Shown here: positions 514 to 36,760 of the stretch, piece after piece
Layout: every line of letters starts with the position of its first letter
Numbering within the stretch: position 1 is the stretch's first letter
Program-made: the position numbers and the translations under genes
Notes under the pieces: generated by a model
What the model was told of the DNA's origin: nothing
Seen by the model: the letters and a program-made list of their open reading frames with translations, nothing else
The model's database searches: none
Origin: Amoebophrya sp. A120
Lineage: Eukaryota > Protista > Dinoflagellata
Length of the DNA stretch: 36,760 nt
Direction: 5' to 3'
NCBI GenBank assembly: GCA_905178155.1
Contig: CAJINV010000023.1
Location: 174,718 to 211,477 of the forward strand

Positions 514-3500
514 ATGCAGGTGGAGGTGAGTCTGACGCGGAACCGGAATCTTACCGGCTCTGAGCTGATTTTGAAAAACCTAACGTCCACAATCACCTGC
601 GGAAACAGACAGCATACGGCGAGTCTGTACCATGAGGGGCAATATGAAATGCAAAAGCATCGTACTAGTATAAATTGCATGACAAATTCCCTCAGCATGA
701 AAAATGAAACTTGTAATGCGGATTTAGATTAGGAGGGATATTTGTAATGCATGATTGCGATTACTACGAGTACGATACTTTTGCACAGGATAGGCAAGTG
801 TTCAGCTTCGAGGAGGAGCAGCAGCAGATATGCATTGCAAACATATATGTCTGGGAGGATTAGAAACTTGTCTTGCTGATACTCGCATTGCAGTGTGGCC
901 GCTTGTACGGCAGAACAGCATCAGAAGTTTTTCAGGCTCGATGTAGCGGGGGATTCATCAACATTCATAAAGAGCAACACAAACTGGTTTCCAGCATGAG
1001 AAAATCACTAGCCAATCGTATTACTGCATCGTAGATCCTCTTGTCCTTCAACTATCGCATCACAAAATTTCCAGACCCAGACTACACATTTGCAATGCAT
1101 AACAGACCCTGGTGCTCCAAATTCAAAATCAGCAGACCAATATCCTGTGCAAAAGTATCTGATACTCGTATTGCAATCATGCATGCAGTCCACTGAATTG
1201 TCGTATAGACTGAGTTGTAGCAGAATACGAAAGCAAAGCGAAGCGAAGCTTACAGCGTATTGTATACCGAGCGAGCGTTTTCAAAGCAAGAACACGATTG
1301 CAAGCGAATCGCTTAAGCCTAACCATTTTGACCCTTCCGTCGTATATTCACCAAATCCCAAACAATGGCGAGCTCTCTGAATTGTCGCACCCCGAAGCAA
1401 TTCAACGTAGAAAATCAATGCAGCCTAGCGCAGCCGCTCAATGATATAGCGCAGGGGAGCACCAGAAAAAGCTGAAAAAGTAAAAAGCTAAGGGATTATG
1501 AGCAAGCGTTGCGTGAGCAGATTCAGAGAAAAACTCTGGCGCCTCGACGCGCAGCTTGCATGACAAAAATGAAAATGAGGAAGGAAAGCCTGCGCTTTCG
1601 CGCACGGAGCGCGATCTGTTGTTATCAGCGTTGCATCCGTAGTTGCAACGAGAACAAGAGCAAACGAAGCAGAAGTTAGCTTTTCTAGCGAAAATAACAG
1701 CAGAACGAGCACGAGAGTAAAGTAGAGAATACGAAAAAACGAAGACTATACTCGAAGAACAAGAAGTTAATAGTTGAGTGTGAAAATAAAGGAAATAATA
1801 ACAAAACGAAGACAGTAGATGCAAAAAAACTGCGCATGTGGAGTCTTGGAAGTGCAGCTGCTGGGCAGGTTGGTCGAAGCGGAGGCAACAAATCAACTTG
1901 CTTGGTGCGCTGCACTTCATGCTGTGTCTATATCTTCCGAAGGGCTATGCAATAACTAAACGAACGTAGGAAGAAACAACGAAGAACGACACAAACAGAA
2001 GAAGTCTATGAACCGAGAATAAAGGTGTTTGAGCCTTGACAAGAACAGTGCTTGTCATGAGAAGTAAAAGGGGCAAACTGGCAAAAAAAAGAGCGAAATA
2101 GCGTAAAGACACTTGCCGCGGCGCAATTGTAAACACAAAAAAAGAGACGAAGAGCCTACGCTTCTACATTCTTAAACGCAGACAAGGACCGGCGACCCTC
2201 CGAAGCCGAGGACGTGGAGGCCATGCGGTGAAGCTCTTGCAGCTCCGGCGGGGCGCGCGGCTCGATTGTAGTAGTGCGCCAAGTTGTTGGCATTCGCAGA
2301 AACTGGCCCCCCTGGAAATTTCTGGTAAGCGCCAGCGGGATAAACACAACGCAAGGGCAGCGCTGCGCACGCCACCACGCCATGGGCGCCGCTTCATAGA
2401 TGCGCCAGATGATGCTGACCCCTGTGACCCCTTCGATGCGAATTCGAATGCCGCGCGTAGCAGCCTCGACCCGACTAACGGACCCGCGTATGTTCGTTGG
2501 GGTTTGTCGCGGGCCCGCCGTTTCCAGTTCAGCAACGTCAGCGTAGGCGTTTGTTTGCGGATATGCCGTGCCAATTTGCCGCGGCAGCGTTTTTCTTTGT
2601 ACCAAAAGCGAAAAAAGAGACGCAAGCAAGCCCGCGGGGTAGGGCGGGTTTCTGCATGCAAATGGGCGCGCGGCGCCACAAAGAAAACGCGGCGCGGTAA
2701 ATTGGCGTGGCATAGCAATGGCAGCGAGCCTGTTCCGAAAACGCGTTCCATTGCGGGATCCACGGCAACGACGGCCGAAAGGTCGCTTCCTGTTCCGGAA
2801 GGCGCTGCCGCAGTCGGGGGCCCTGCGGGTGCTCTTGGCTGCACGGGCGCCGAAGGCGGCAAAGCGGTGGGCGGGGCTGCGTTGGGGGGGGGCGGCTTTG
2901 GTGCCGCATGGCTTTCGAGCCCGCCGGGGCAGCGCTTCACATCCTTCCACGGGACGTCCTTCAACGACGTTTCCCGCTTTTTGCCAGCAAGCACGCCGTC
3001 GCTGCGAGCATCAATGCCCAACGACTTCAGCTTGGTAACGACGTACGGACCCAAGAATTTTTTCGCGAGCCCGGGGCCTTTCTGGCGGTTTCGGCACAAA
3101 ACGCGTTCCCCAATTTTGAGCTTTTTGATGTCCTTGAGCCTGCTGGCATCGCCGCGGAGTTGGAAAAAGCGCTTCCGGTTCGTGAGCGCCTTCATTTTAA
3201 GGGAACTGCGCAGCGCGTTTGCGGCGGGGTCGCTTCCCGCGTTGTCGCTGCTGTCCGCTGCGTCGTCACTGCTTGTTTCCCCCTGCCGCCCAACCGGCTC
3301 CGCCACTTGTGCTTGCGGCCCGTTTTTCTTTTCTGCTTCTGCGCTGGCTTCGCTGTTGCCAACGATTTTCGGGGGCGCACGCGGCACGGGGTGAAGGGTG
3401 GCTTCCGTTACGTCTCGCAGGGGCCGCAGGAACGTCGCCAAATGCCGGGCAGCCGGAATGCGCCGGCTCCTGGTGGTGCGGCGGTTCAGGGCAGCAACGC

Positions 3501-6500
3501 ACGCCGTGTGGTGTCGCACCCAATCCCCTTCCCCGCCCCTCTTTCGCAGCTGTTGCTTCAATTGCCCATTATAAGACTCAGTGGCCCCGTTGGATTGTGG
3601 ATGCGCCCGGGGGCTCTCCCGGATGTCCGTGCGAAACGCTTGCCCCGCGGCGCTATCCGCCACAAAAGTGGCGCAGCGGTGGTCTCGGGTCAAGCACGTG
3701 CATTGGCTCCAGTCTTTGATCTTTTGCAGCTCGGTACCCTTGTCAATGTTCAGATGATCCGGGACCCCGTGTTCCTCCACCATGTCCAGATAGGCTTGCT
3801 TTACTTCTTCGGCCTCGAAGCTGGTTAGCAGTTTGGAACACACGGCGCCGGTGGTGAGGCAGCACATATTCAGACAGCCGACGAACTTGGTGCCCGCGTG
3901 TTTGCCGCGGTGGGCCGAATTCTCGCAAGGGGTGCAGATGATGCAATCTATTCCGGCCCAGCACGTATACATCGGAAAAGTAGCCCCCCACAATAACCGC
4001 AACGCGCCGCTGCGTGCAACACTCAAAAAAGACGGCGCGCTCTGTGTAGCTTGGCGCTTTCTCTTAGATTTGCGCGCCGCGTGTGGTTGCGGTTACGGGA
4101 GGCGGGGCACTTTTCCACAGGATAGGCGAAGGGGCGTAGCGATTCGTTGGCGGGGTCCCCAAGCGCCGCCAGCGTGGAACTGGCGTAGCTGTCCTGCTGC
4201 CTTGGCGCCGTTTCTTCGTTTGCCGCGCAAGCTTCGCACGCCTGCACTGCCTGCCGGGCACTTTCCTTGAAGCCGCACCATGTGAAACCTAGTTGCTGGA
4301 TGCCCGCCGCGGTCGCATCTACCCCCCCATGGGATCGCAAGTGGGCAAGGGCCGCGATGCGTTGCTTTTCAGCTTCGTCACCGGCGGGCACTACCGTCAA
4401 CCAATCAGGATACACCAAAAGCGCCTCCGTGGATTTGCGTCCATAGCCCTGAAACTCCGCGCGGACCTGCAGCTTGCTAGTGCCTGGGGCCAGGCGAAAA
4501 TAACGGGCCTTGTCCTTCCACCACTTGCGCTGCCGAGCGGTGAGCCCCAACGCCTTGCAGGCCGCCCTGACGTCGGCAGCTGCCAACAGCGTTTCGATCG
4601 TGTCATCGGGCAAAGAGAAATTTTTACCGGCGTTCGACTTACGGCCCCGCTTCAAAGGCGGGGGCGCGCACTCGCTTGAGTCCGAAACGCTTCCCAAATC
4701 GCCCTGCTCCGAATCGCTTGCGGCCGCAACAACCTCAGGCGGCAGCGGCGCGGATGCATTCAGCTCCGCGGGGCGCTTTTGCGGAGCATAGCCGGCGTGC
4801 TTTGGTTCTAGCGCCTGCGGATCATCTCCTATCGAGTGCTTCTCGGGGCCATTTTTGGCAGGCGCGTTTGGCTTTAGCGCTGGCGCGCTCGTTTCCGTGC
4901 CCTGCTTCTGGCAACCCGGGTCACCCCCCGCCGCCCCTGTTTCTGGTGCCTGCGGTGCTGCTTCCGCTTGCGCCGCCGGCCTCGCGCTGCTGCCTCGCGG
5001 GGATGCGCTGGGCAAAACATAGGCGTCATAGTGGCGGCCATCGTACTGCAAGCGGATTTCCGTCGTGCCGGCTCCAATTTTTTGAAACCTTACGGCGGAG
5101 CCGGGGGCGGGCTCGATGCAGATCGTGAGGCCCATCACCTGGGCGGCAGCTTCCAGAAAGGCGTGCCCAAGCCACACGGTTGCGGCTGGATGCAGCAGCT
5201 TCTCCAACCAGGACAGCCACTGGCTTTGCTCTTCCAGGACGCCGCGCCCCGCCGGTTCGTCAGCCCCATACTCCCCCACCCAAAACGGACCAAGCTCTTC
5301 GCTATGCCAATGCGCAACACACCCCCTTCCCCTTTTTTTCCTCCTTTGGCCTCGGTGATTGGCGCCGGGCCAAGCACCATCACAAGCGCCTACCATATGC
5401 CGGCCCGACTCAGAGCGGGTAGTCTCTGGCGCATTTTTGCCAGAACAACGGCAAACCGCCGAAGAACTTGAAAAAAAAAAACCAAAGGGCCGGCAATTCT
5501 GTGCGGAACGGAGAACAGCATCACAAATTTGGCCCGTCGTCTTTAAAGAGGGGGGGGGGGGTGTTGCGCGGTGCCATAATCACGCTTCCCGGCCATGAAA
5601 CCTTCCACCAGCTGCTTCACCTTCGGCATGCTGATACCCGTGGCCGCCGCAATGGAGAGAGGGCAACAGTTGCCGTTCCCCGCAATTTTTTGCAAAACCG
5701 CCTCTCCAGTCGTAGGCGCATCCTGTGCAAAACCCCCCCCCCCTCAAGATCACGGCGCGCCTTTGTCATGCTGTTTGCAACATTTTCCCGGAATTTTTCG
5801 GAAAAATCCGGGGAAAACTGTAAAAGGCCGACAAAATTCGGGCCCTGCGTTTGCGACAAGGAGGGGGGGGGACTATTTTCTTCGCCATATTTTGCCGGGG
5901 CGGCGCCGCTGTGGGGCCCGCTCGCGTGTTCCCCCCGAATCCATTCCACCCGGCAAAGCCATCCCATTTTTCCCGGTTTCGGGTTCCGGCTGCCGGGAAG
6001 GCGGCCGGGCTGACCCGCACGGTTGGCATTCGCGTCGCCGCCCAGGAGGGGCACCATCACGGTGCGGAAGTCTTTTTCGGCCTTTGCGCCCCCCTCCACC
6101 TTGTACCAACCCTGCCAGCACGTTTCTGATGTGCGGGTGACAAATCGGCCTATAAAAATGAAACTTCCCCCCGCCCCGAACTTAGACTCGAAATCTGTCA
6201 TGCAGATTTGTGGCCACAAATCAGATTTGTCATGCTAGAACAAAAAAAATGCAAACTGTAGAGCTGGTTCTCATGAAAAGTCCTTGCATCTTCAGCATGA
6301 CATCGGGCAGCTAGAAGTGCGAAACAACATGACAAATTCGCTGCAAATGAGGCCGCAGCTGCGTCTCTTGGCCTTCTAGCATTACAAGCCGGCCTGACTG
6401 TGTACTCAAAAGCAGCATTACAAATGTCGTTTTTGATATGGGGAGGGGGGTTTTTCATTCTAATACGGCAGCGGTGGTCTTCCTTGGCCTTTTCCACCGT

Positions 6501-9500
6501 CGCCGGCGAAACATTGTCGAGATCGACCAGAATCCACGCCGAGTTGGTCGGCCGAAAAAAATAATGAAACGCCCGCCCCAATTGGTCCGGCCGCCACTCC
6601 CGGGGCAACAAGATCTGGTCCATGACGAGAGTGCCTGTGGAAAATAAAAGCGAAAAATAGCAAAGGGGAGCGACGTGGAAACGAAGGCACATATCACAAA
6701 CGCTATAGAGGCTTGCCCAAGCAAAAGAACCTCCCAAAAAAGTTAACAAAACCACTACGAAAAAGGGCCGGAAACCAAAAACGATAAGCATACCGCCGCC
6801 GCCGCGCACTGGCTCCGTTGTTGTTGTCAAAACCAACTTTCGAAGCCCCCCGATGTCCGGGCAAAACTTGAGGACCCGCGCCATGTCCGAGGTCAAGGCG
6901 GCGGGGTCCAGGTCGTCCGTCACCAGCCCTTCGGACGTGTAGCGGTATCCCGGAAAAACGGACGGCGACCCCAGAACAGGGGGGGGCGGGGGGGGGGTGT
7001 TGTTCGCGCGCAGTCCCCCGCCGCGCCCGCGTCCGTCCCCGTCCGCTTCGGCCTTGCCCGCCTCCGACTCGCTTCCCGGGTCGGAGTCCGCGAGCGAAGA
7101 AGCTGGGCCCGCGTCGAACTTCGGCACCGCTGCCGCCGGTAGGGGGGGCGGGGCGGCCTTTTCGCCCTTTGGGCCCGGAGCACTGGGGGCCGGATCTTGT
7201 AACCAAGACACGTCCAAAACACTGCCCGCGCCGCTGTAGGGAAAAGCCGCCATCAGGTCGGCGTCGCGGGTTTTTTTGGCCACGTTGGCGGCAAAACTTT
7301 TCTGGCCCGGGCTGTAGGGCTGCGCCTCTTCCGACGCCGTAGCCAACATCCCTCCCAGCATGCTGCAACATCATGAAAAAAGCGCGCCCCAGCCGCGAAG
7401 GGCCGCCGGCGTCTGTGATGGGCGGAAATGCGAAAAAAACGAAAACGCCTGCCATGCCTAACATGCTGCCCCTGCTTCGCAAAGCCAGCGGCGCGCTTTT
7501 TTTCTGGGGGATATTTTTTCCTTCGGGTTCAACGTCTTCCCCAGGTCCCGAAGCTTGGCGAAGTTCGCCCAAAGGCGGCCCACCTTCAGGGCCGTAAGCC
7601 GCAGGCGCCGGCGCTGCGTGTCCGAGTAGGCCACCCGGTCGCCCATGTCGATCCAGCCCGCGGGGGTCAGGCGCGGCGGAAAGTTGCCCGAATCCCCGAA
7701 GCAGAATTCGGAATCGTCCGCATCCAGAAAGCCAGCGGCCGCCAAGGCCTTGGCCCGGTCGTAATCGCCGCCCACCGAAACGATTGCCATGGTTTGCAAG
7801 GCGAAATCGAAAAAATGCAAGAAGGAGAAAAACGCGAAACAACGAAAAAGGTAGAGAAGCCAGAAACGTAGCAAGCTAGTGCGTGGCTGGTATTTTTTTG
7901 CTTAGTAGGGAAGAGGTTTTTTGTGGTTAGTGCGCTCGTTTTTCGTCCGAGGTCGACAAGTTGTTTTTTTTTTGGGTAGCGTGTTCTTTTTTCGTCTGAA
8001 CGAGACAAATTGAAGTTGGGCACTGTAGTGAAGATGAAACAAGAAAAAAATAGTATAAGCAAGAGCCACAAAGTCGCGATCGTATGACTATCACGTGATT
8101 GCTCACATGATAGTCATGTGATTTTGGACCCCCATAAGCCAATTTGAATTGTTTCGATCACGTGATAATCAAATGATTATCACATGATAACCGACCCAGG
8201 ACGAAAATTACATCTGTCGCACCATATGACAGATCCCCCGTCATACTTACGCACGAAAAGCAAAAAACATGAACGAAACGCAACGAAAACGGCAAAAGAA
8301 CGAAGACCGAGCGTATATACAATACGATGACAATTCAGATTGTACGAAGCCATGCCGAAAAATAAAGTGAAAAAAGCAATTCAGCGTGGCGCAACTCAGA
8401 TTACTGCATGCATTACAAATTTTTTTCTCAAGGTAAATCCACATTACAAATTTAATTTCTCATGCTGAGGAAATTTGTAATGCATTTATACGAGTACGAT
8501 ACTTTTGCAATGCATAACCAAGACCATGATGTACGTGCGCACCATTCCGCTAAAACAAGTGTTGCAGCACTGCCAGCAGATCAACGGCCCATTTCTGAAT
8601 TGGGTGCCAGTCTACACACCCGGAGACCCGTCAGACCAACGTTTTGATGTCCGACACCCAGCAGAAGACCACGAGCCGCAGGTCTACCTGTCGCTGAAGA
8701 TGTACGCGCGGAGCTCCTACAACAACGCGCTGCCCCCGGGTTCTGGCCAAAACCTCAGGAACATGATGCCCGCAAGCGGCGGCGGTTACTTTCCTCCCGA
8801 AAGAACGACTTCCAGTGCGGTAAACCAAGTGCCACCCCATCCGCCGCAGCCGATGGGCGCAGCAGCAGCAGCTTTCGCGCCCAACTCTCCGCAGAATAGC
8901 AATCCGGGAGTTGGCAGCTACGGAGGTGCAGCCAACATGATTGTGCCAGGCAACATATGCACTGTAAAAGTATCGTATTCGTATAAATTATGCACTGCAA
9001 ATTAGCTCAGCATCACAAATGGAATTTGTCATGCTGATTTACCTTAGCGTGTAGATTTGTAATGCATAATTGCGATTACTACGAGTACGATACTTTTACA
9101 CTTGATAAAACATCCAGCGTAGGAACTCCACTTCCCGGGGGAACCACCCGCAGTCGCCGCCCCAGTCCTCCGAACTGCTCGCAAATAACTATTATCGTGA
9201 GAAAAAATAAGTATAGACAGTTACACATTATGTTGCAGGAGCCACAGACAGAGACAACCTCTGTCATGCAGGAGATGCTTGCCAACCTCATTCCTTTCGT
9301 GTTTTCCCTTATAGTCCGCGCATCACAGGTTTTCCTCGCCATGTCGAGCAACTCGGTGATGCAGAAACTCCAGCAAATGTGTAACTGAAACAGTTTTTTC
9401 CTGTGATACCTATCGCGGGCAAACTACTATCACGGCGGGGGCGCCGCCCGGCGGTCTTGCAGCTGGTGCAGCAGGCGCATCGGCGAATAACTTCGTCCTT

Positions 9501-27500: not shown

Positions 27501-28128
27501 GCCATCTGCCACTCCCGCCATTTCCGGTGTTGGATCTGGAGGAAAACTTTCCGCAACCTAGCATGAATGTGCCCAGCCACGACGGAATCGAGATCCGGGT
27601 AATTTGCCCGAAACACAGTTGCAGCGAAGACCAGACGAGTGGGGCCTTCACGTATTGAGAGGAAAAATCCCCCCTCCCCATATCGAAACGGTATGCTTCC
27701 GAAAATTTGTCTTGCTGATTTGAGACCACAAATCACGTCTGTCTTGCCAGAAGACAAGTACACAGGCTCTGCCGCATTACGCAGGCGGTTTGTGATGCTG
27801 TTGGGCCTACAGCATAGACGTTTCCCATGCTAAGCACCTAGGCAAAAACCTCTCCGCTCAGGCTTGGCAGGAGCCTGCAGTCCGCCATTGCAAGACAGAT
27901 CTGATTTGTGTACGCAAATCCAGCATCAGAAACTTCCTTTTGATATGGGGAGGGGGGATTTTTCCTTTTGATATCACGAAAAAAGTGCTTACTGTGCTTG
28001 GCAGTGCAGCGAGCGGGGCTGCAGCGGAGACCCTGAGCTTTCAGCAAGTCGCGGCGAGCAGTGGGACGGCGGGGGAGGAAGTGTTTGTGATGGGTGGGAC
28101 GGGCAGCGGAGAGCTGTTCTACTCTTAA
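514..28128 (+). CDS. Multi-exon gene (~39 exons, ~1,700 aa): N-terminal globular (possibly C2-like) domain, low-complexity linker, long coiled coil, C-terminal catalytically degenerate metacaspase (peptidase C14-like)
   Basis: Manual join, keeping the upstream DR copy: 514-642, 798-828, 1107-1140, 8522-8955, 9113-9192, 9414-9785, 10053-10092, 10439-10467, 10723-10743, 11017-11131, 11425-11456, 13109, 13412-13462, 13712-13779, 14080-14117, 14294-14309, 14565-14610, 14859-14914, 15108-15142, 15411-15439, 15612-15734, 16007-16079, 16236-16308, 16615-16701, 16970-17202, 17363-17435, 17700-18044, 18232-18612, 19498-20374, 20634-20729, ~24666-24815, 24976-25023, 25289-25447, 25767-25826, 26075-26316, 26558-~26620, ~27160-27219, 27461-27652, 27979-28128. 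Phases are consistent throughout. Metacaspase motifs appear in order: KSAIVVGCN, GLQHANADA, IRVLTD, NIFHAIEDVLVK..EHLFFYFSGYG, LLPADF, VTLILDAG, CSEDQTSGAFT. The junctions near 24666 and 26620-27160 are uncertain. Confidence 0.8.
643..792. mobile_element. Introner family A (TIR TATnnnnTGCAAAAGTATCGTACTCGTA)
   Basis: DR ggcaa/ggcaa. Confidence 0.9.
829..1101. mobile_element. Introner family B (TIR TATnnnnTGCAAAWATGTCTGGGTCTGGAA)
   Basis: DR gcaga/acaga. Confidence 0.88.
2156..7790 (-). CDS. Transposon polyprotein (~1,408 aa): unknown N-terminal domain, RepB'-like AEP primase, OTU protease, integrase (H2C2, DDE, GPY), possible OB fold
   Basis: Join 7790-7514, 7363-6794, 6634-6466, 6145-5890, 5713-5579, 5297-4125, 3960-2715, 2556-2156 totals 4,227 nt and is open from ATG to stop. 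Six introns follow the element+5 nt rule and one (6793-6635) is GT-AG. Confidence 0.82.
2562..2714. mobile_element. Degenerate introner in the transposon gene
   Basis: TIR TATGCCGTGCCAATTTGCCGCG / rc TATGCCACGCCAATTTACCGCG; DR decayed; frame restored by element+5 removal. Confidence 0.78.
3020..4360 (-). CDS. Retroviral/Gypsy-type integrase domain (H2C2 zinc finger, DDE core, GPY/F motif)
   Basis: AHLRSHGG...ACEAC; spliced RPFAWAGID; GVPDHLNIDKGTE; HPQSNGATESYNGQLKQQL; DW....ALN; GERVLCRN...KFLGPYVV. Confidence 0.92.
3966..4124. mobile_element. Degenerate introner in the integrase domain
   Basis: TIR TATACATCGGAAAAGTAGCCCC / rc TATCCTGTGGAAAAGTGCCCC; splicing yields RPFAWAGID. Confidence 0.8.
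5010..5713 (-). CDS. OTU-family cysteine protease domain of the polyprotein, split by an introner
   Basis: Cys motif QKIAGNGNCCPLSIAAA (exon 5713-5579), then WLGHAFLEAAAQVMGLTICI and His motif IRLQYDGRHYDA. Confidence 0.8.
5303..5578. mobile_element. Degenerate introner in the OTU domain
   Basis: TIR TATGCCAATGCGCAACACACCCC / rc TATGGCACCGCGCAACACCCCCC; DR ttcgc/atcac. Confidence 0.8.
5719..5889. mobile_element. Degenerate introner between primase and OTU
   Basis: CATCCTGTGCAAAACCCC...GGGGACTATTTTCTTCGCCATA; frame restored. Confidence 0.7.
5930..6634 (-). CDS. RepB'-like DNA primase domain (AEP superfamily) of the polyprotein, split by an introner
   Basis: Spliced peptide HYFFRPTNSAWILVDLDNVSPATVEKAKEDHRCRFVTRTSETCWQGWYKV...LLGGDANANRAGQPGRLPGSRNPK. 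It follows the motif order I recall for RSF1010 RepB' (YIRP..LVLVDD..VETSPxNYQAWVKV..D....GRLAGFTNRK). Confidence 0.8.
6151..6465. mobile_element. Introner family C in the primase domain
   Basis: DR cggcc/cggca; C-rich/G-rich TIR. Confidence 0.85.
6635..6793 (-). other. Canonical GT-AG intron in the transposon gene
   Basis: G|GTATGC ... TTTTCCACAG|G, 159 nt, T-rich on the minus strand. Confidence 0.8.
7369..7513. mobile_element. Degenerate introner in the transposon gene
   Basis: IR AAAAAAGCGCGCC/GGCGCGCTTTTTT; ends CAT...ATA; frame restored by element+5 removal. Confidence 0.65.
8956..9107. mobile_element. Introner family A
   Basis: DR caaca/aaaca. Confidence 0.88.
9193..9408. mobile_element. 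Introner, singleton family (CAGTTACACATT IR)
   Basis: DR actat/cctat. Confidence 0.82.
9786..10047. mobile_element. Introner family B
   Basis: DR acatg/acatg. Confidence 0.9.
10093..10433. mobile_element. Introner family C (TIR ...GGAAAAATCCCCCCTCCCCATA)
   Basis: DR gctgc/gctgc. Confidence 0.9.
10468..10717. mobile_element. Introner family B
   Basis: DR agcag/agcag. Confidence 0.9.
10744..11011. mobile_element. Introner family B
   Basis: DR ccgag/ccgag. Confidence 0.9.
11132..11419. mobile_element. Introner family B
   Basis: DR caata/caaca. Confidence 0.85.
11457..13103. mobile_element. Introner family A expanded by a satellite
   Basis: DR atctg/acctg. Confidence 0.8.
11500..13050. repeat. 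Tandem satellite, ~9 units of 167/170 bp, inside an introner
   Basis: Unit starts recur at 11655, 11822, 11989, 12159, 12329, 12496 and 12663; terminal units are diverged. Confidence 0.95.
13110..13406. mobile_element. Introner family B
   Basis: DR cctgg/cctgg, overlapping the previous DR. Confidence 0.9.
13463..13706. mobile_element. Introner family D (TIR TATGAGAGTGCACAACTCCCCC)
   Basis: DR ctacg/ctacg. Confidence 0.9.
13780..14079 (+). other. Canonical GT-AG intron
   Basis: CAG|GTGCGC...CATCAG|ATT, in frame. Confidence 0.8.
14118..14288. mobile_element. Introner family A
   Basis: DR acgaa/ccgaa. Confidence 0.87.
14310..14559. mobile_element. Introner family B (inverted near-copy of 10468-10717)
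   Basis: DR aacgc/aacgc. Confidence 0.9.
14611..14853. mobile_element. Introner family D
   Basis: DR gcaaa/gcaaa. Confidence 0.9.
14915..15102. mobile_element. Introner family A, degenerate
   Basis: DR decayed (cgagg/aaagc); frame restored. Confidence 0.75.
15143..15405. mobile_element. Introner family B
   Basis: DR cagaa/cagaa. Confidence 0.88.
15440..15606. mobile_element. Introner, singleton family (AAATTTCCCG IR)
   Basis: DR tctga/tctga. Confidence 0.85.
15735..16001. mobile_element. Introner family B
   Basis: DR actgt/actgt. Confidence 0.9.
16080..16230. mobile_element. Introner family A
   Basis: DR gaaat/gaaat. Confidence 0.9.
16309..16614 (+). other. Canonical GT-AG intron
   Basis: GCG|GTATAA...CCTTAG|GCC, in frame. 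Confidence 0.8.
16702..16964. mobile_element. Introner family B
   Basis: DR gccgc/gccgc. Confidence 0.9.
17203..17357. mobile_element. Introner family A
   Basis: DR gcact/gcact. Confidence 0.9.
17436..17694. mobile_element. Introner family E (TIR ...CTCAnnnGTTACAWTCTCAA)
   Basis: DR aggac/aggat. Confidence 0.88.
18045..18226. mobile_element. Introner family A, degenerate
   Basis: Right end ATGCAAA; DR lost; frame restored by element+5 removal. Confidence 0.7.
18613..19492. mobile_element. Introner family A with nested MITE-like insert
   Basis: DR tatat/tgtat. Confidence 0.85.
18635..19361. mobile_element. MITE-like non-coding insertion nested in a family-A introner
   Basis: It splits the introner TIR (aagtatcgta|ctcgta). 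It starts TGTAGTGAGGTC, with the inverted copy GACCTCACTAC at 19329-19339. Imperfect 4-bp flank cgta/ggta. Confidence 0.6.
20375..20628. mobile_element. Introner family E
   Basis: DR gcaga/gaaga. Confidence 0.87.
20730..24665. other. Long intron starting with a family-A TIR and containing the 192-bp satellite; 3' end unresolved
   Basis: TATGAACTGCAAAAGTACAGTATCG at 20730. No right TIR or DR was found; a frame-compatible CAG ends at 24665. Confidence 0.55.
21066..24110. repeat. GC-rich tandem satellite, ~16 units of 192 bp, inside an introner-initiated intron
   Basis: Exact 192-bp period (21650, 21842, 22034 ... 23570); the central copies look identical and the edge copies are diverged. Confidence 0.97.
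24816..24970. mobile_element. Introner family A
   Basis: DR ggcgg/ggcgg. Confidence 0.9.
25024..25283. mobile_element. Introner family B-like
   Basis: DR aagta/aatta. Confidence 0.83.
25448..25761. mobile_element. Introner family C
   Basis: DR tgctg/tgctg. Confidence 0.9.
25827..26069. mobile_element. Introner family B
   Basis: DR ccctg/ccctg. Confidence 0.88.
26317..26552. mobile_element. Introner family E
   Basis: DR ttctg/ttctg. Confidence 0.9.
26785..27060. repeat. ~1.5-copy tandem duplication (period ~179 bp) in a conventional intron
   Basis: cttgctggagtccgagtgacagccgccgga...gtcactc occurs at 26785 and 26964. Confidence 0.85.
27220..27455. mobile_element. Introner family E
   Basis: DR agcag/agcag. 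Confidence 0.9.
27653..27973. mobile_element. Introner family C
   Basis: DR tcacg/tcacg. Confidence 0.9.
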
Positions 28129-29691: not shown

Positions 29692-32600
29692 ATGTTGAAC
29701 GTGGGCCCCCGTACGTTCAATGGCGTGCCGTACCTCGCCGGCGGTCCCAAGAAGACCACCGCCGAAGAGGAACGGATCCTAGCCCTGCGGGCAAACATCG
29801 AGAAAGAGGACAAGGAGCTGCAGCAACTCATCGCCGAACGGGATCGAAGAAAGGATTTGAAGGAAAGACGTGAGATTCGGGCCAGTCTGCTCAAGTACAA
29901 CCAGAAAATGGCCGAGTACGAGAAGCGCACCAAGTCGCTCTCCGGTTCCCGCTCCTTCGGCGAAGATCCAAGTCTACACGACCCGTCCGGCCAGCCAGAT
30001 GACGGCGGAGACAAGGAGGTATCAAATGCAAATATGTCAGAAACTTGTGGTGCTGATACTTGCAACACAGGGTGGTTGCTTGTACGGCATAACAGCATGA
30101 GAAGTTTTCATCCTCGGCTTCTTGTGCATTCATTCGTAAATAGCATGACAAACTGTCTTCCAGCACGACAAAAAAACTCGCCTATCCTCTTCATGCATCA
30201 CACAGCTGTCCTTCAAATTTCGCATCACAAATCCAGATCCAGAAATATTTGCCATGCATAGGAGGATTCGGACGACGATATCGATCCGAAAACGGGGAAA
30301 AAGAAGAAGAAGGACGCGATATCAAATGTAAAAATGTCGGGGTGGGGAAACTTGTGATGCTGAGTGGCGTCTCATGATGAGGCCACAAATGCTGGCTCAG
30401 CATGACAAGTTTCTGAGTTTCTAGGTGTTGCCTAGTGTGCATGACAAACTGCGTTTCTGCATCACAGAAAAATGGAGCTCTTGGGTAACTAACGTGCTGC
30501 ATGACAGATTTAACTGTCATGCCAGACAAGCATGACAAACATGCATTCTCCCACCTGACCCAGACATTTTTGCACTTGATACGCGAAAAAGAAAGGCAAG
30601 AGCGCGGCAAGGAGTCTCGCAGAGTTGAAGGTCGCACAGCAACAGGAAGAGGAAGAAAAGTACAAGGTCAGCTTTCTGCGCGAAGCACAAAAGTTGCGCG
30701 ATGAAGTGGTCCGAGACATGCAGAACGCGGCGACGACCACCGAGGCAGCGAAAATTGCCGGCAAAGAGGTGCTGATTTTTTCATTTTTTCGTTGCGTGCG
30801 GCATGACAAATTCAAAATGTCGCAGTGCTACTTTTCGCAAGACAAAATCGGGGGATGGAACTACTCTTCACAAGAAAGCTGTATTTCTTTTGCTTGTAGT
30901 TGTAATGCTAACACAGTAAAACAGGTTTCCTCCGATTACGCTGAGTTTATGCGGGGCCATATGGAATGCAAATATGTCTGGGTCTGGAAGATTGCCAGGT
31001 TTGTCATGCATATTTTGCATGACCTATGATGTCTGTGATGCATGCCCTAGCATCACATATTTTTAGAGGACTTTGCGATGCCTCTACCGCATGAGAAATG
31101 CCCTCTCTGCATAGCACAAACTGGAGTGCTCTTCTTGGTCATGCAATACACATTTTTTTAGAATCCAGAGACAGCATTACAAGTTTAGCATCTTCCAGAC
31201 CCAGACACTTTTGCAATCCATAGGCCAGGCGGGTATGGCCAGACACCTGAAAGACGGGGCACCGTGGTACTATGCATTGCAAACATTATCGATCTGGTGA
31301 TCTGAGTTTGTCATGCGGGATTTGAAGGACAAAAAAGATCTGTGATGCGTGACTACGAGTACTATCTACAAGTGGCTATAATTTTGCGATACGTGTATGA
31401 TCAGCAACACAAATAATTTCCAGGCCCTGATCGATACTTGCAATGCATAGGTACCGACCGGACGTGATGTTCCGACTGTGGTTGATGAAAAAGCGGTATC
31501 AACTGCAAACATCCCTGGATGTCGGGAAGAATGCCAGACTTGTCATGCAGGTTTTCCATGACCCATGACGTCTGATATGTAGGACATAGCATGACAGATT
31601 CTGTGAGAGTTCTATCATGTTGCCTACCCTGCATCAGAAACTGCCTCTCGGTTAGGTCAAAAGTGGACAGCATTTGGTAATCATGCTGCACAGATTTACT
31701 GTGCACGATTCAGTGTTAGCATGACAAGTTCGTTGGAGAGTTCCAGACATCCAGGGTGGATATTTGCACTCGATAAGTGGTTTCAACAGTACGAGCAGTC
31801 GCTCGGGATCCGAAAGAAGGGCCGCGTCCAGCGGATGGTGGAGTCGCTGGGGTTCGACCTGTTTTTCGGTTTGATGATCTGCGTGAATGCGTTCACGATC
31901 TATCAGATGCAAATATGTCTAGGTCTGGATGAGTGCAAGTTTGTCATGCTTGTCTGGCATGACTCGAGAATCTGTGTTGCATAGGCACGAAAAAGCCCCC
32001 GTACCTGTCATGCAAAAACGCAGCTCGCCATGCGGAATACGTAAGACATGGCAGCCAAAAAATTTGTCATGCATAGCTGCGTATTGCAGTGCGTCTGTCA
32101 TTCCCCTTTAGCATTACAAGTTTCCAGACCCAGACATTTTTGTAATGCATACGATCGGGAGCGGAGCGAAATACCGTGAGGGCGAGGAAAAGCCGTCCAA
32201 CGTGACCATGACGGAAAATTTTTTCACGGGGCTTTTTGTCGGCGAGTTTTTACTGCGGGTGCGCGCGTTTGGGATCATCTGGGTCTTCGACGCCTGGAAT
32301 TTTATGGACTTCCTGCTCGTGTGGGTCACCGGGGTGCTGACCCTGTGGGTGCTGGATATGGGACTCTCAAACTTTACATTCTCAACTGTTACATGATTTT
32401 TTTGTGATGCATTGCAGCAATATGGGAAGGGGCAAGCTTGCGAGTCTCGCATCACAAATTTGCAACAGATTTCGATGCTGTTTGACCCTTCGAGAATTTG
32501 TCATGCGAAGCACCTTAATCTCCTGGCGACTTATGGGAATTTTGCATGACAAAGCACGTAACAAACTGTGACAGTTGATGAGGGTGTATTAACGTTTGAG

Positions 32601-35600
32601 AGCCCCATACTGGAGCCCGCGGGCATGGGCCACCCGATTTTGCGGGGTCTGGTGGTCTTCCGTGTGTTTCGCCTGATTCGTATCCTGAGGAAAAACGTCC
32701 CCACCCCAGAGTTGTCATGCAGATTTGCAACGACAAGGACATCTGTGATGCGCATGCCCATGGTAGACATTTCCAATCGTGTTTTGAAATTTGTGATGCT
32801 GTGAACAGGATAAGCAGATGGATCTGTGATGCGGCTGCACTTGCTAATCTGCACTACCCTACGGAGTGCAACTTGTCATGCGTGACTCCCAAAAGAACTC
32901 ATAGGTTTGTGTTGCAAAATCCCCATCTTGACTGTGGGGTGGGGACGTTTTTACACAGGATAATTCGCGTGGCGAAGGAGCTGCGCATGGTACCGATCTT
33001 CAAGGAGCTGTGGATGCTGGTGCAGGGCATGTACGGGTCCCTCACCTTGATCATGTGGATCCTCACAGTCGGCGCGGTGCTGCTGGTTTTTTTCTCCATC
33101 TTTTTCATGGACCTGATATCCTACGTAAAAACGCGCCCACGCCATAGGTAACGTGGGAAATCTGCTAGACAAATCGGCCAGCCTTGGCTGTTTCGCATGA
33201 CAACTTTGCCTTCGTAGTGTGATCCTCTTTAGCTAGTTCAACAGCATCACAGATCTAGCGCATCATGCTGATTCGAGCATCACAAACTCCAAAGCACGAC
33301 AGCAAAATGCTTCTCTTGGGACTCTGCATGAGAAACATTTTAAGCATGCAGATTTGCATGACAACTCTGGGGTGGGGACGTTTTTGCTCAGCATACCTGA
33401 TCGGCGCGACTCTGCTCTACCAGGGGGCGGACCTGGGCAACAGCTTCTGCGGCATCGACCAGTACACGGAAACCTTTTGCTGGGAGTACTGGTCAACGAT
33501 GGGGGGCTCCATGTACACCCTCCTGCAGATGGCGCTCTTTGACGGGTGGAGCAAAATCGCCCGAGTTTTCATGGAGACAACTGCGGACTACGACAACAAG
33601 ACCTCCTTTCTGCTGGTCATGTTGCTTTACGTGGTCTTCGTATCAATTGCAAATATTTTTGGGGCTGGAACGATGCAAGGTTTGTCATTGTCATGCACAG
33701 TTTGGATGACTCCTGACGTCTGTGCTGCATGCCCTAGCATCACAGATTTTGTGAGGGCTTCCTGATCATGCCTATACCGCATGAGAAATACCCATTCGCC
33801 GTGGCAAAAACTGGACCCCTATTGCTGGGCATGCAATACAGCTTTTTGTAGTATCCAAATGCAGCACCAGCATCACAAGCTGCAACCTTCCAGAACCAAA
33901 CCCAGACATATTTGCATTTGATAGTTCGTCGCGATCGTGTTCTTGAACATCATCTCCGGCATCGTGATTCAGCTCGCGTTATGACAGTGCACAACGAACT
34001 CCCCCTCATTTGCATAGCATGAACGGCATATAAAAGCATCAGCAAGAGTGCCGGTTTTGCATGACAAATTTGCACTGGAGGACTGTACTGCTGTTCCTAT
34101 TTGGACTACCAGAACTTGTCATGCATACAGTGCCGCGTGACAAAGAGTGGATTGGTTATTTTGCATGAGAAATGAGAACGAGGGGGAGTTGTGCACTCTC
34201 ATACGCGTTTGCGGCGAGCGAAAAGGACGCGGAGGCGACCAAGGTCAGGCAGCAGCTGGTATACGCAATGCAAAAGCATCGTACTAGGTAGTTGTAGTAT
34301 AAATTGCATTACAAATCCGCCCAGCATTATAAATTGAATTTGTAATGCTGATTTACGGTGAGAAAGAGATTTGTAATGCATAAATGCAACTGCTACGAGT
34401 ACGATACTTTTGCACAGGATATGGTAGTCCAGAAAACGACACAGGAGCTGCTGATGATTTTCGACGATATGGTATCCTGAGTAAAAACGTACCCACACCA
34501 GAGTTGTAATGCAGATTTGCAAAGACAGGAAGACTTGCAATGCGCATCTCCATGAGAGCCATGGTTTTCAATCGTGTTTTGGAATTTGTGATGCTGTGAA
34601 CAGGATGAGGGGGTGGATTTGTTATGCGGCTTCCCTTGCTAAACTGCATTTACACTACAGCCTGCAACTTGTCATGCGTGACTCACAAAGTTCCTAGGTT
34701 TGTGTTGCAAAATCCCCCTCCTGACTCTGGTGTGGGTACGTTTTTACTCAGGATATATGGATAAAGACGGATCCGGTGAACTGACGAAAGCAGAGTTTGC
34801 GAACCTGCTCTCCGATGCCAAGTTCATCAACAAAATGAAAATCCTATCCTGTGCACAAGTATCGTTTACTCGTATTGCAATCATGCATTACAAATCTGTT
34901 CCTTAAGGCAAGTCCGCATTACAAATTTTATCCCCCAGAGTAGCCCCCCCAACTACTCGCCCGAGCCAATGATCCCACTCGTGCTTCGCACCAACATAGG
35001 ATGGGCTCACTTTCTCGCTTCCAGGGAATGCGAATTGGTTTTTAACCGACTTTGTGCCAAGAGGAGGGCCTCCCCGGGACCGCCTGGCGAAAGCCTGCCA
35101 CGGGTTTCACTGTCCACGGGTGGTGTTGCGGGTAATCCTGGCGAAAGCCAAAAACCGGCAGAAAATGGGGCCACGGAAGCGTTCTTGCTGGACATTACCA
35201 ACATTTGCCCACGCAGAGCCGTCCTCTTGCCGGACACAACCAACATCTGTCCGAAACAGCCTAGGGCCAAGACGACGCCGTGAGGACGACCACAGGGGGT
35301 CTGTCTCAATGATGATGATGATGCTGAGGATATTTGTGATCGCGACGCATTTATACGAGTTCGAGTGCGATACTCTTGCAGTTCATAAATCCTCGACATA
35401 GAGACGCACGACCTCCCCGACATCTTTCGCATCTGCGATGATGGCGATGGAGCAGTGTCTTCCTCGGAATTCTGCAACTATCACACAGAAAAAAGCAGGC
35501 AGGTCGGATTTGTAATGCAAAACAGCGCGCATGTTATGGGGCCGCCCATGACAGATATTTATTTTGTTTGTTTATTTTTGCATTAGATTACAAATGTTCC

Positions 35601-36578
35601 CTGCTAGCTTTTTTCCCTGGGATAGCAACGGGTTGGTGAAGATGCTGAAGATTCCGACCGCGCTGGACATGCTGTCGGTCACGCGGACGGCGCGGGCCTT
35701 GGAGCGATATCCAAGTGAAAAAAGCCCCCAGACCCCATATTCAAAAGACAATTTGTGTTGCTGGATTTGTGTACACCAATGAACTTTGTATTGCAGCAAG
35801 AGCTTGTCGGCATATTCTGAGCCCATCTGGGTATTACGCCTCCGGCTAGCAGCTACGCATGAGAAACAGGTCGGACACAGGCGGAAACGCATGACAGACT
35901 GGCTGCACAATGCGCCACATGGGTGCCGTTTGCCTTGTACGCAAGACAAAGCTGATTTGTGGCCACAAATCAGCATCACAAATTTCCTTTTCGATACGGG
36001 GCAGGGAGATTTTTCCTCACAATAAGCGAACGCTGAATTACATCGTGGACGAACTGGCGCAGGGCATTATCCTGTGCAAAAGTATCGTACTCGTATTGCA
36101 ATCGTGCATTACAAATCTTTTTCTTAAGGTGCATCTGCATTACAAATTTCCTGTCTCGTGCTGAGGATATTTGTATTGCATTTATACGAGTACGATACTT
36201 TTGCAGTTCATAGGCATTTTGCGTGGACGATATCCTGTGTGAAAACGTCCGCGCACCGTAGTTGTCATGCAGATTTGCAATGGCGGCAAGCAACGCTTGT
36301 TGTAATACGCATCTTCATGAGATGCATCGTCCATCGTGTATTTGGCATTTGCAATGCTGCAACCAGGATAAGGAGATGGCTTTATTCTGATGCAGATGCG
36401 GCTTGCCTTTCTAAGAACCTGGACTATAATACAGCGAAAACTTGTCATGCGTGACTCCCAAAAGTTCTGGATTTGTGTTGCAGATTTACCAACAACTTGA
36501 CTCTGGGGTGGGGACGTTTTTCTTTTTCCTCAGGATAGACGAATCGTGAAAATCAGCGACAATGTGCGCGGCATTCAA
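29692..36578 (+). CDS. Single-domain voltage-gated cation channel (Ion_trans, 6 TM) with C-terminal EF-hands; 3' end outside the window
   Basis: Join 29692-30019, 30266-30319, 30587-30768, 30925-30959, 31228-31270, 31455-31496, 31781-31900, 32157-32356, 32615-32680, 32968-33116, 33401-33640, 33929-33979, 34209-34261, 34427-34472, 34761-34844, 35393-35478, 35630-35707, 36030-36067, 36218-36230, 36543-36578 gives 648 open codons. S1 VESLGFDLFFGLMICVNA; S2 ENFFTGLFVGEFLLR; S3 WNFMDF; S4 LRGLVVFRVFRLIRVAKELR; pore TLLQMALFDGWSKIAR; S6 FLNIISGIVI; EF loop DKDGSGELTKAE. Confidence 0.9.
30020..30260. mobile_element. Introner family B-like
   Basis: DR ggagg/ggagg. Confidence 0.88.
30320..30581. mobile_element. 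Introner family B
   Basis: DR cgcga/cgcga. Confidence 0.9.
30769..30924 (+). other. Canonical GT-AG intron
   Basis: GAG|GTGCTG...AAACAG|GTT, in frame. Confidence 0.75.
30960..31222. mobile_element. Introner family B
   Basis: DR ggcca/ggcca. Confidence 0.9.
31271..31449. mobile_element. Introner, singleton (TATGCATTGCAA..ATCGATC IR)
   Basis: DR ggtac/ggtac. Confidence 0.88.
31497..31775. mobile_element. Introner family B-like
   Basis: DR agcgg/agtgg. Confidence 0.87.
31901..32151. mobile_element. Introner family B
   Basis: DR cgatc/cgatc. Confidence 0.9.
32357..32609. mobile_element. Introner family E
   Basis: DR ctgga/ctgga. Confidence 0.9.
32681..32962. mobile_element. Introner family F (TIR TATCCTGnGnAAAAACGTCCCCACCCCA)
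   Basis: DR attcg/attcg; lies inside the S4 coding sequence. Confidence 0.9.
33117..33395. mobile_element. Introner family F
   Basis: DR cctga/cctga. Confidence 0.9.
33641..33923. mobile_element. Introner family B
   Basis: DR cttcg/gttcg. Confidence 0.87.
33980..34203. mobile_element. Introner family D
   Basis: DR cgcgt/cgcgt. Confidence 0.9.
34262..34421. mobile_element. Introner family A
   Basis: DR tggta/tggta. Confidence 0.9.
34473..34755. mobile_element. Introner family F
   Basis: DR tatgg/tatgg. Confidence 0.9.
34845..35387. mobile_element. Introner family A with ~380-bp internal insertion
   Basis: DR aatcc/aatcc. Confidence 0.87.
35479..35624. mobile_element. Introner, singleton (GAAAAAAGC IR)
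   Basis: DR gcaac/gcaac. Confidence 0.87.
35708..36024. mobile_element. Introner family C
   Basis: DR agcga/agcga. Confidence 0.9.
36068..36212. mobile_element. Introner family A
   Basis: DR ggcat/ggcat. Confidence 0.9.
36231..36537. mobile_element. Introner family F
   Basis: DR gacga/gacga. Confidence 0.9.
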
Positions 36579-36760
36579 TACGCAGTGCAAAAGTATCGTA
36601 CTAGTCTGGTAACCAAATGCGTGCGCGCGCGCGCGCAGAGCGCGCGCCGGCCCACGAAGCCGGCGCGCGCGCTCTGCGCGCTTGCGATATTGCTTAGCAA
36701 ACGCAGCGCGAAGGCAGTTGCCGTTACCATATAGGGCAACCGCCGGGAGGCGTGAAGGTC
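36579..36760. mobile_element. Introner family A left end followed by GC-rich foreign sequence; truncated by the window
   Basis: TACGCAGTGCAAAAGTATCGTACTAGT, then unrelated (GC)n-rich DNA from ~36607. Confidence 0.65.

What the first reader, a model, noticed from the sequence alone, without database searches (positions are those of the whole stretch)
643..36760. About 60 TA-ended, TIR-bounded, 5-bp-DR introner-like elements from at least six families, with no fixed splice dinucleotides
Seen: 35 elements in gene 1, 19 in gene 2 and 6 in the transposon gene, against only ~5 conventional introns. Almost all start TA(T) and end (A)TA and are flanked by a 5-bp DR of arbitrary sequence. Removing the element plus 5 nt restores the frame at every junction I could resolve. 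For many DRs (accaa, cctga, tcacg, attcg) no register gives GT/GC-AG. Known: non-canonical inverted-repeat introners with short direct repeats have been reported in Amoebophrya, and their excision machinery and transposase are not established. Inference: these are non-autonomous DNA transposons removed precisely by an end-recognising mechanism.
Basis: partly seen in the sequence, partly recalled or inferred. Interest (0 to 1): 0.82.

Follow-up and report, generated by a model that had tools for sequence, protein, structure and literature searches.

The report
Transposon introns with a fixed cut
These are the already described transposon-derived introns of the marine parasite Amoebophrya A120, and spliced contigs (likely RNA) show them removed together with five flanking bases, most likely always one base before their TAT start and four bases after their ATA end, a rule the original paper left open and that makes the unknown splicing machine testable.

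Summary
I find 61 complete TA...TA elements (37 in gene 1, 18 in gene 2, 6 in a nested transposon gene) and 4 conventional introns. Both host genes match annotated Amoebophrya sp. A120 proteins, so these are the published A120 introner elements.

All 21 element joints listed in spliced contigs remove element+5 nt. The junctions with mismatched repeats share only one register: the intron starts 1 nt before TAT and ends 4 nt after ATA. Only one junction (26648) fixes this alone; without it, 3 or 4 upstream repeat bases kept both fit. Since 1+4 equals the 5-bp target duplication, an insertion leaves the mRNA unchanged in either orientation. The repeat itself is not needed for removal. Intron end dinucleotides are arbitrary, but T+2 and A+3 are invariant (61 of 61), as in spliceosomal donors. 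I favour a modified spliceosome (0.55) over a nuclease-ligase (0.3); no lariat or circle data were available.

A 7.2-kb insert encoding an intact OTU-zinc finger-integrase-like protein sits inside one element. Its ends (TG...CA, 4-bp duplication) differ from the introners', so it is not shown to move them. The scan has noted similar introns in other genomes.

The parts
514..28128 (+). Gene 1: 1717-aa, largely coiled-coil protein with no Pfam hit; 37 elements and 2 conventional introns
   Evidence: Prediction identical to annotated A120 protein P0004 only at register k=4; no Pfam family
29692..36760 (+). Gene 2: ion-transport and EF-hand protein running off the window; 18 complete elements, 1 cut element (from 36579), 1 conventional intron
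   Evidence: 647/647 identical to A120 protein P0001 for k=3-5; Ion_trans E=2e-22
643..27973 (+). All gene-1 elements: 643-792, 829-1101, 1141-8516, 8956-9107, 9193-9408, 9786-10047, 10093-10433, 10468-10717, 10744-11011, 11132-11419, 11457-13103, 13110-13406, 13463-13706, 14118-14288, 14310-14559, 14611-14853, 14915-15102, 15143-15405, 15440-15606, 15735-16001, 16080-16230, 16702-16964, 17203-17357, 17436-17694, 18045-18226, 18613-19492, 20375-20628, 20730-24363, 24391-24697, 24816-24970, 25024-25283, 25448-25761, 25827-26069, 26317-26552, 26648-27154, 27220-27455, 27653-27973
   Evidence: 21 of them have a joint listed
30020..36537 (+). All complete gene-2 elements: 30020-30260, 30320-30581, 30960-31222, 31271-31449, 31497-31775, 31901-32151, 32357-32609, 32681-32962, 33117-33395, 33641-33923, 33980-34203, 34262-34421, 34473-34755, 34845-35387, 35479-35624, 35708-36024, 36068-36212, 36231-36537
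   Evidence: contig coordinates match the prediction at 8 of 8 points up to 33636
26647..27158 (+). Non-slidable intron: element 26648-27154 plus 1 nt before and 4 nt after; flanks tgttt/cctga share almost nothing. Fixes the register alone.
   Evidence: Joint 26646>27159 with zero slide in X4; k=3 gives a stop, k=5 a different residue from P0004
18045..18226 (+). Element ending AAA, flanks taact/tcgcg; register limited to k=3 or 4
   Evidence: Joint 18042>18230 in X1-X4
14915..15102 (+). Element with flanks cgagg/aaagc; k=2-4; reads GT...AG at k=4 only
   Evidence: Joint 14911>15105 in X1-X4
17436..17694 (+). Element with repeat aggac/aggat; downstream fifth base kept, k at most 4
   Evidence: Joint 17430>17695
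25024..25283 (+). Element with repeat aagta/aatta; k at least 3
   Evidence: Joint 25021>25287
31497..31775 (+). Element with repeat agcgg/agtgg; k at least 3
   Evidence: Arg228 in P0001 and both orthologues P0002, P0003; joint not listed
1141..8516 (+). 7376-bp element: a short family-A element (about 43 bp left, 108 bp right) split by a nested insert; exact repeat accaa
1184..8408 (.). Nested 7.2-kb insert with TGCAGT...ACTGCA ends, subterminal CTGA(A/G)TTG repeats and a 4-bp duplication (6-bp reading also possible)
2156..7790 (-). Intact 1407-aa frame with OTU-like, H2C2 zinc finger and integrase-like regions; 6 elements (7366-7513, 6151-6465, 5719-5889, 5303-5578, 3966-4124, 2562-2714) and 1 conventional intron (6635-6793)
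   Evidence: Integrase_H2C2 E=1.5e-4, below cut-off; rve_3 E=0.048; atlas rve 0.91 and OTU 0.93; no transcript evidence
13108..13108 (+). Predicted 1-nt exon between two adjacent elements
13780..14079 (+). Conventional GT-AG intron
   Evidence: Loose end at 14077 is the upstream exon
16309..16614 (+). Conventional GT-AG intron
   Evidence: Joint 16307>16614
30769..30924 (+). Conventional GT-AG intron

Best explanation
These are the known introner elements of Amoebophrya A120: short inverted-repeat elements, likely moved by an integrase-type transposase, that are cut from transcripts together with five flanking bases, most likely at a fixed register and probably by a modified spliceosome. Shown: TA...TA ends, a duplication of exactly 5 bp, insertion in both orientations, removal of element+5, and removal where the duplication has decayed. 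Shown for one junction and compatible with all others: the intron begins 1 nt before TAT and ends 4 nt after ATA. Inferred: because 1+4 equals the duplication length and the ends are symmetric, a new insertion leaves the mRNA unchanged at any site and in either orientation. Inferred, untested: the paired inverted repeats bring the ends together in place of U1 and of 3'-AG recognition, the element's TA fills positions +2/+3 of a spliceosomal donor, and the 3' cut is measured from ATA.
For: Removal: 21 of 21 listed element joints skip element+5; the same contigs also lack conventional introns, as mRNA would. Register: the allowed ranges intersect at k=4 only; nine informative junctions give P=0.0036 under a uniform random register, 0.021 allowing any of six; P0004 equals the prediction only at k=4. 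Duplication length: among 123 elements from another assembly, with the far end placed by TIR alone, 96 have an exact 5-bp repeat, 1 a 4-bp and 0 a 6-bp repeat. Orientation: one family-A end type lies left in 6 and right in 4 of 12 members. Hairpin: 47 of 55 short elements fold with z below -2, median -5.9, against -1.0 to +0.9 for 3 conventional introns. For the spliceosome: T+2 and A+3 in 61 of 61; GT-AG arises in this same register at 14915 and 30020; the only changed 5' TA among 113 oriented 5' ends makes a GC start (L129), against 6 changed among 121 3' ends (suggestive only); Farhat's nine commonest A120 pairs all have T at +2, and A25's start TT with a TTA repeat; A120 keeps U2, U4, U5, U6 and most proteins, with U1 undetected; Fritillaria is a precedent (via a review). 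GingerRoot integrase-type elements have TA...TA ends.
Against: The exact register rests on one junction in one run; without it k=3 or 4 both fit. X1-X4 are one sample, contigs only, and 'RNA' is the tool's guess; the annotated proteins probably come from similar transcript data and are not independent. No information at +1, -1, -2 (38 dinucleotide pairs in 61) and no bias to G+1 or AG in 112 outside elements (32 and 6), although the spliceosome normally reads these bases (recalled). No adenosine is common to all 3' ends, so no branch point is evident. A 1-nt exon is predicted. TA ends are also what an integrase would need, so their conservation need not reflect splicing. The terminal TAT:ATA pairs are predicted at 0.04 or less in five elements that are spliced (14915, 15143, 16080, 18045, 20375). 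Farhat's pairs may reflect aligner preference. In Euglena similar introns are thought to be non-spliceosomal.
Confidence: 0.55

Rival explanations
1. Same fixed register, but a protein endonuclease measures from the TAT/ATA stem, cuts with 1-nt and 4-nt overhangs, and a ligase joins the exons, in parallel to the spliceosome, as proposed for Euglena nonconventional introns.
For: Arbitrary +1/-1/-2 bases, no branch motif, orientation independence, a predicted 1-nt exon, strong hairpins. Euglena's code also has free bases outside a paired triplet, N3-CDG...CHG-N5-6, and a circular excised form was reported.
Against: T+2/A+3 sit at spliceosomal donor positions in A120 and, from the paper's tables, in A25. 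3' ends tolerate AAA, ATT, ATG and TTG while 5' TA is intact in 61 of 61. The 1/4 geometry does not fit the bulge-helix-bulge cut (recalled as 1/6). No candidate enzyme could be searched for.
Confidence: 0.3
2. The register is not fixed: each element, or each molecule, is cut anywhere within the repeat, and k=4 is a coincidence of few informative junctions.
For: Farhat et al. describe splice sites as variable relative to the hairpin; most junctions here slide; contigs drop minor forms; the codon test on 26 outside elements did not favour k=4.
Against: All nine informative joints include k=4 (P about 0.004-0.02); four runs of one sample show one form at each joint; three elements with almost no repeat left still lose exactly element+5.
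Confidence: 0.1
3. The elements are removed from DNA, like TA-bounded ciliate eliminated sequences, and the spliced contigs come from rearranged copies.
For: TA(Y)...(R)TA ends resemble ciliate eliminated sequences (recalled); X1-X4 are not on record as RNA.
Against: The same contigs lack GT-AG introns and cover the genes with short untranslated flanks. DNA-like contigs of a second study (X7) run across element-exon borders.
Confidence: 0.04

Closest known systems
Introner elements of Amoebophrya sp. A120 (Farhat et al. 2021, PMC7789003)
   Same: Same organism by protein identity. IR starting TAT, seven variable bases, then an A run; 3-5-nt direct repeats; about 240-nt mean length; transcript support; no dinucleotide signature.
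   Different: The paper's text calls the splice sites variable relative to the hairpin and the border unknown, and reports no transposase in A120. Here one register fits all junctions, the repeat is exactly 5 bp and dispensable, and an integrase-like gene is present. I saw text, legends and tables, not the figures.
A120 introner families in Gozashti et al. 2025 (PMC12130899)
   Same: TIR DNA introners; family 38 is annotated 'Ginger, 5-bp TSD, TA/TA termini'.
   Different: Splice sites in the 22 of 58 A120 rows that I saw are scattered over GT/GC/GA/AT/non-canonical, with no common register. I could not assign window elements to their families.
Euglena nonconventional introns (PMC12501133)
   Same: Paired ends, slidable repeats, free terminal bases, fixed distance from a paired triplet to the cut; resolved with non-slidable introns.
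   Different: Triplets CDG/CHG with 3 and 5-6 free bases and a purine after the cut, against TAT/ATA with 1 and 4 here; distant lineage.
Fritillaria borealis MITE-derived non-canonical introns (seen through review PMC11282704 and passages of PMC13326754)
   Same: Transposon origin, TIR and target duplication, non-GT/AG ends, spliceosome proposed.
   Different: Preferred AG-AC/AG-AT ends and a TAC target preference, U1 conserved; here no preferred ends or target.
Ginger1 / GingerRoot integrase-type DNA transposons (PMC6839031)
   Same: Nested insert: TG...CA ends, 4-bp duplication, H2C2, D-D-E spacing and a GPY motif as in Ginger1. Introners: TA...TA ends as in GingerRoot.
   Different: GingerRoot makes 6-bp duplications, the introners 5-bp. 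The window's integrase-like core has no sequence relative in three searches.

Membership tests
A120 introner elements | Lies in the A120 genome | tested here: met
   Both host proteins identical to annotated A120 proteins
A120 introner elements | Terminal inverted repeat TAT + 7 nt + A run | tested here: met
   Position table
A120 introner elements | Direct repeat of 3-5 nt at the border | tested here: met
   52 of 55 host elements with at most one mismatch; decayed in the transposon gene
A120 introner elements | Repeated families | tested here: met
   7 clusters at 40 bits; 152 loci of one family in another assembly
A120 introner elements | Removed from transcripts without GT-AG | tested here: met
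   21 joints; runs are contigs, RNA status guessed
U2-type spliceosomal intron | GT/GC...AG ends | tested here: not met
   2 of 61 GT-AG at k=4; 12 of 61 canonical-like in any register
U2-type spliceosomal intron | U at +2 and purine at +3 | tested here: met
   61 of 61, confounded with transposon end requirement
U2-type spliceosomal intron | Branch-point motif | tested here: inconclusive
   No invariant A; A at -5 or -7 in 60 of 61; A120 U2 sequence available only as a figure
U2-type spliceosomal intron | Lariat intermediate | not testable with these tools
   No raw RNA reads hold the locus
Euglena nonconventional intron | N3-CDG...CHG-N5-6|R code | tested here: not met
   N1-TAT...ATA-N4 with no purine bias after the cut; works alike, not a member
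MITE / non-autonomous TIR transposon | Constant target duplication and TIRs, no coding capacity | tested here: met
   96 of 123 exact 5-bp, 1 at 4 bp, 0 at 6 bp
MITE / non-autonomous TIR transposon | Autonomous partner with the same ends | tested here: inconclusive
   The only transposase-like gene lies in an insert with other ends; no genome held
Ginger1 (nested insert) | TG...CA ends and 4-bp duplication | tested here: met
   palindromic context also allows a 6-bp reading; single copy
Ginger1 (nested insert) | Gypsy-like integrase by homology or phylogeny | tested here: inconclusive
   Weak Pfam and atlas hits; no relatives; model unusable

The most novel reading that the evidence does not exclude
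Amoebophrya A120 has a simple, unreported splicing code, N|TAT...ATA-NNNN, whose 1+4 free bases equal the 5-bp duplication of its own transposons. Any insertion, at any site and in either orientation, is then an instantly seamless intron, cut by a machine that reads only the transposon's ends. The mobilising transposases are integrase-type genes that were missed because they are themselves split by these introns, like the one nested here.
Probability: 0.45. Interest if true: 0.8.

Novelty: already known. Interest (0 to 1): 0.55.

Why it matters
About 65% of A120 introns are non-canonical and their splicing mechanism has been open since 2021. A fixed -1/+4 register gives exact ends for lariat or circle sequencing and for reporter mutagenesis, and would put tens of thousands of scattered annotated borders into one frame. 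It explains how transposons can fill coding sequence (about 73% of the window from the first ATG on is element DNA) without changing proteins. It also suggests where the missing A120 transposases may hide. The elements themselves, the 5-bp duplication and the TA ends are in print. I did not find the register in searches, but I could not see Farhat's figures or Roy et al. 2023.

Tried and rejected
No genome is held, so no search for autonomous elements, snRNAs or ligases was possible. No RNA holder is listed on record for the stretch. Raw RNA runs X8 and X9 gave 97 and 6 laid reads, mostly partial matches inside elements, so they say nothing on these junctions.

A gradient of repeat mismatches in the window (7, 3, 2, 1, 1 by position) was not repeated in outside elements (2, 7, 4, 4, 3), so I dropped it. 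Selection towards G+1 or AG was not found. A codon-usage test of the register on 26 outside elements with mismatched repeats was uninformative: k=0 +3.1, k=1 +0.4, k=2 -1.1, k=3 -7.1, k=5 -2.5 relative to k=4. Strand calls for outside elements come from a codon model that was right in 42 and wrong in 5 of 52 window cases at the threshold used.

The integrase-like core found no relatives and its single-sequence model was unusable (pLDDT 36), so no fold search was run. Reading the whole 7376-bp TAT...ATA unit as the autonomous introner is disfavoured: its outer parts rebuild an ordinary short element around a 4-bp duplication, the insert has its own terminal repeats, and two other family-A elements (18613, 34845) carry different inserts at other positions; a deletion origin of the short elements is not excluded. 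A bulge-helix-bulge substrate was rejected on recalled geometry. A gene-1 exon gave no useful structure hit. Roy et al. 2023 is not held.

Full report
**Observation.** I read the whole window and scanned for TA...TA pairs with terminal complementarity and flanking repeats. Under strict criteria 34 pairs are found against a mean of 0.41 in 100 shuffles; the loose scan alone was noisy (85 against 25-41). Curation by frame and spliced contigs gives 61 complete elements: 37 in gene 1 (514-28128, +), 18 in gene 2 (from 29692, +; a 19th is cut by the window end) and 6 in a gene on the minus strand (7790-2156). There are four conventional introns. Ends read TAT, seven variable bases, an A run, and the mirror image. 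Of 55 host elements 39 have an exact 5-bp repeat, 13 one mismatch and 3 almost none; none of the 6 in the minus-strand gene is exact. Seven clusters and 12 singletons form at 40 bits.

**Organism and genes.** Single exons retrieved annotated Amoebophrya sp. A120 proteins at 100% identity. Removing element+5 is the only choice among +0 to +8 that leaves both genes open. Gene 2 then equals P0001 over 647 of 647 residues and aligns with two orthologues without indels at junctions in the conserved part. Gene 1 equals P0004 over 1717 residues.

**Transcripts.** Runs X1-X4 are contigs of one sample, guessed to be RNA. I laid 24364-36760 (X8, X9, X4, X7) and 14060-20729 (X1-X4); each joint table shows only its 15 best rows. 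Twenty-one listed joints fall on single elements and all skip element+5. The other rows were one conventional intron, one double joint across a short exon, and seven joints between repeat copies; a second double joint appears in the letters-between table. Contig coordinates match the predicted mRNA across the 3.6-kb element and at 8 of 8 points in gene 2. The raw RNA runs did not hold the locus. X7 behaves like DNA and crosses element-exon borders. Elements upstream of 14060, including the 7.4-kb one, rest on the annotated protein and on contig lengths only.

**Register.** Let k be the number of upstream repeat bases kept. The joints allow k=4 (26648), 3-4 (18045), 2-4 (14915), 0-4 (17436), 3-5 (25024), 2-5 (18613), 2-8 (20375) and 1-5 (24391); a contig piece ending at 33636 gives k of at least 1 for 33641. 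The only common value is 4: the intron starts 1 nt before TAT and ends 4 nt after ATA. Under a random register this has P=0.0036, or 0.021 allowing any of six values. Without 26648 the range is 3-4. At 26648 k=3 makes a stop and a nearby GT...AG pair is not used. Orthologues give k of at least 3 at 31497. Three spliced elements have almost no repeat left, so the repeat is not the signal.

**Outside elements.** A pattern for the largest family found 152 loci, the 80 listed all on JACKZZ01 contigs. They gave 123 distinct elements with the far end placed by TIR alone: 96 exact 5-bp repeats, 1 at 4 bp, 0 at 6 bp. Of these, 112 could be oriented by a codon model; they show no excess of G at +1 or AG at the 3' end and no gradient of mismatches. 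A codon test of the register on them was uninformative.

**Signals.** In the k=4 frame, information lies at +2..+4 (TAT), -7..-5 (ATA) and the A/T runs; +1, -1, -2 carry none, and 38 dinucleotide pairs occur among 61 introns. End pairing is 93-98% over the terminal three pairs, 43-70% over the next five, then above 80%. Forty-seven of 55 short elements fold far better than shuffles, but five spliced ones have the terminal pairs predicted open. Family members lie in both orientations. A 1-nt exon is predicted at 13108.

**Mechanism.** Inferred: an integrase-type transposase inserts TA...TA elements with a 5-bp duplication; GingerRoot has such ends and one A120 family is annotated so. Because the cut takes 1+4 flanking bases, the mRNA is restored at any site. 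For the cutting machine I favour a U1-independent spliceosome (0.55). T+2 and A+3 are invariant, GT-AG appears in the same register, the 5' TA seems less tolerant than the 3' TA (1 of 113 against 6 of 121 changed, suggestive only), and published A120 and A25 motifs have T at +2. Against it stand the free +1/-1/-2 bases, no branch motif, and the fact that TA is also a transposon end. A nuclease-ligase path as proposed for Euglena gets 0.3, a variable register 0.1, DNA-level excision 0.04.

**Nested insert.** Element 1141-8516 is a short family-A element split by a 7.2-kb insert with TG...CA ends and a 4-bp duplication. Its 1407-aa frame is intact once six elements and one GT-AG intron are removed, though +2 and +8 would also be open. 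OTU, H2C2 and integrase assignments rest on weak Pfam hits, atlas scores of 0.91-0.93 and motifs; three sequence searches found no relative. Farhat et al. reported no transposase in A120. This one has other ends than the introners and is not shown to move them or to be expressed.

**Literature seen.** PMC7789003: sections 11, 12, 16, passages, supplement part 2 and table rows, no figures. PMC12130899: passages and 22 of 58 A120 rows of one dataset; two supplement files were not searched. PMC11282704: part 2 of 5. PMC12501133: passages and discussion. PMC6839031, PMC13326754, PMC12787238 and bioRxiv 2024.09.05.611473: passages. Roy et al. 2023: not held. Farhat's figures 3 and S19-S23 and Roy et al. 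may bear on the register. [quoted passage not shown] Spliceosome contacts, bulge-helix-bulge geometry, ciliate sequences and the Ginger1 OTU domain are recalled.

**Verdict.** A real and known feature: A120 introner elements. The new parts are a probable fixed cut register, the dispensability of the repeat, and a hidden integrase-like gene. Novelty: already known; interest 0.55.

Noticed in passing
window 1184-8408: Ginger-like insert with an intact 1407-aa OTU-H2C2-integrase-like gene, antisense inside a host intron; its six elements are mostly GC-richer than the host's and have lost their repeats.
   Followed up: partly
window 28126-29691 and 1-513: No element end scoring 10 or more in the untranslated and intergenic DNA or in the three host conventional introns, against 55 elements in 7.1 kb of coding sequence. 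Suggests a strong bias to coding or GC-rich targets; the profile recovers only 93 of 122 known ends.
   Followed up: partly
window 11513-12959 and 21079-24109: Tandem arrays (167 bp x 8.6; 192 bp x 15.8) inside elements; the 3.6-kb one is removed in the X4 contig.
   Followed up: partly
window 18634-19340: Insert in element 18613 with an 11-bp inverted repeat; contigs show other flanks at both ends, so it is probably a separate repeated element.
   Followed up: no
window 13104-13109: Element 13110 inserted into the duplication of element 11457, leaving a predicted 1-nt exon.
   Followed up: partly
window 20700-26600 (gene 1 C-terminal part): Resembles a metacaspase domain with the catalytic His and Cys replaced (recalled motifs); Pfam gives no hit.
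   Followed up: partly
window 17123: An extra A in a homopolymer in the X1 and X4 contigs but not X2 or X3; it would break the frame and is probably an artefact.
   Followed up: no
window 30769-30924: Conventional intron with CTAAC followed by a first AG at 30916 that is skipped; using it would put a stop in frame.
   Followed up: no
L129: The one oriented outside element with a changed 5' TA would begin G-C-A-T, a GC-type donor.
   Followed up: no
window 6635-6793 and 16309-16614: Two of the four conventional introns begin GTAT, like an element preceded by G, but have no matching 3' repeat.
   Followed up: no
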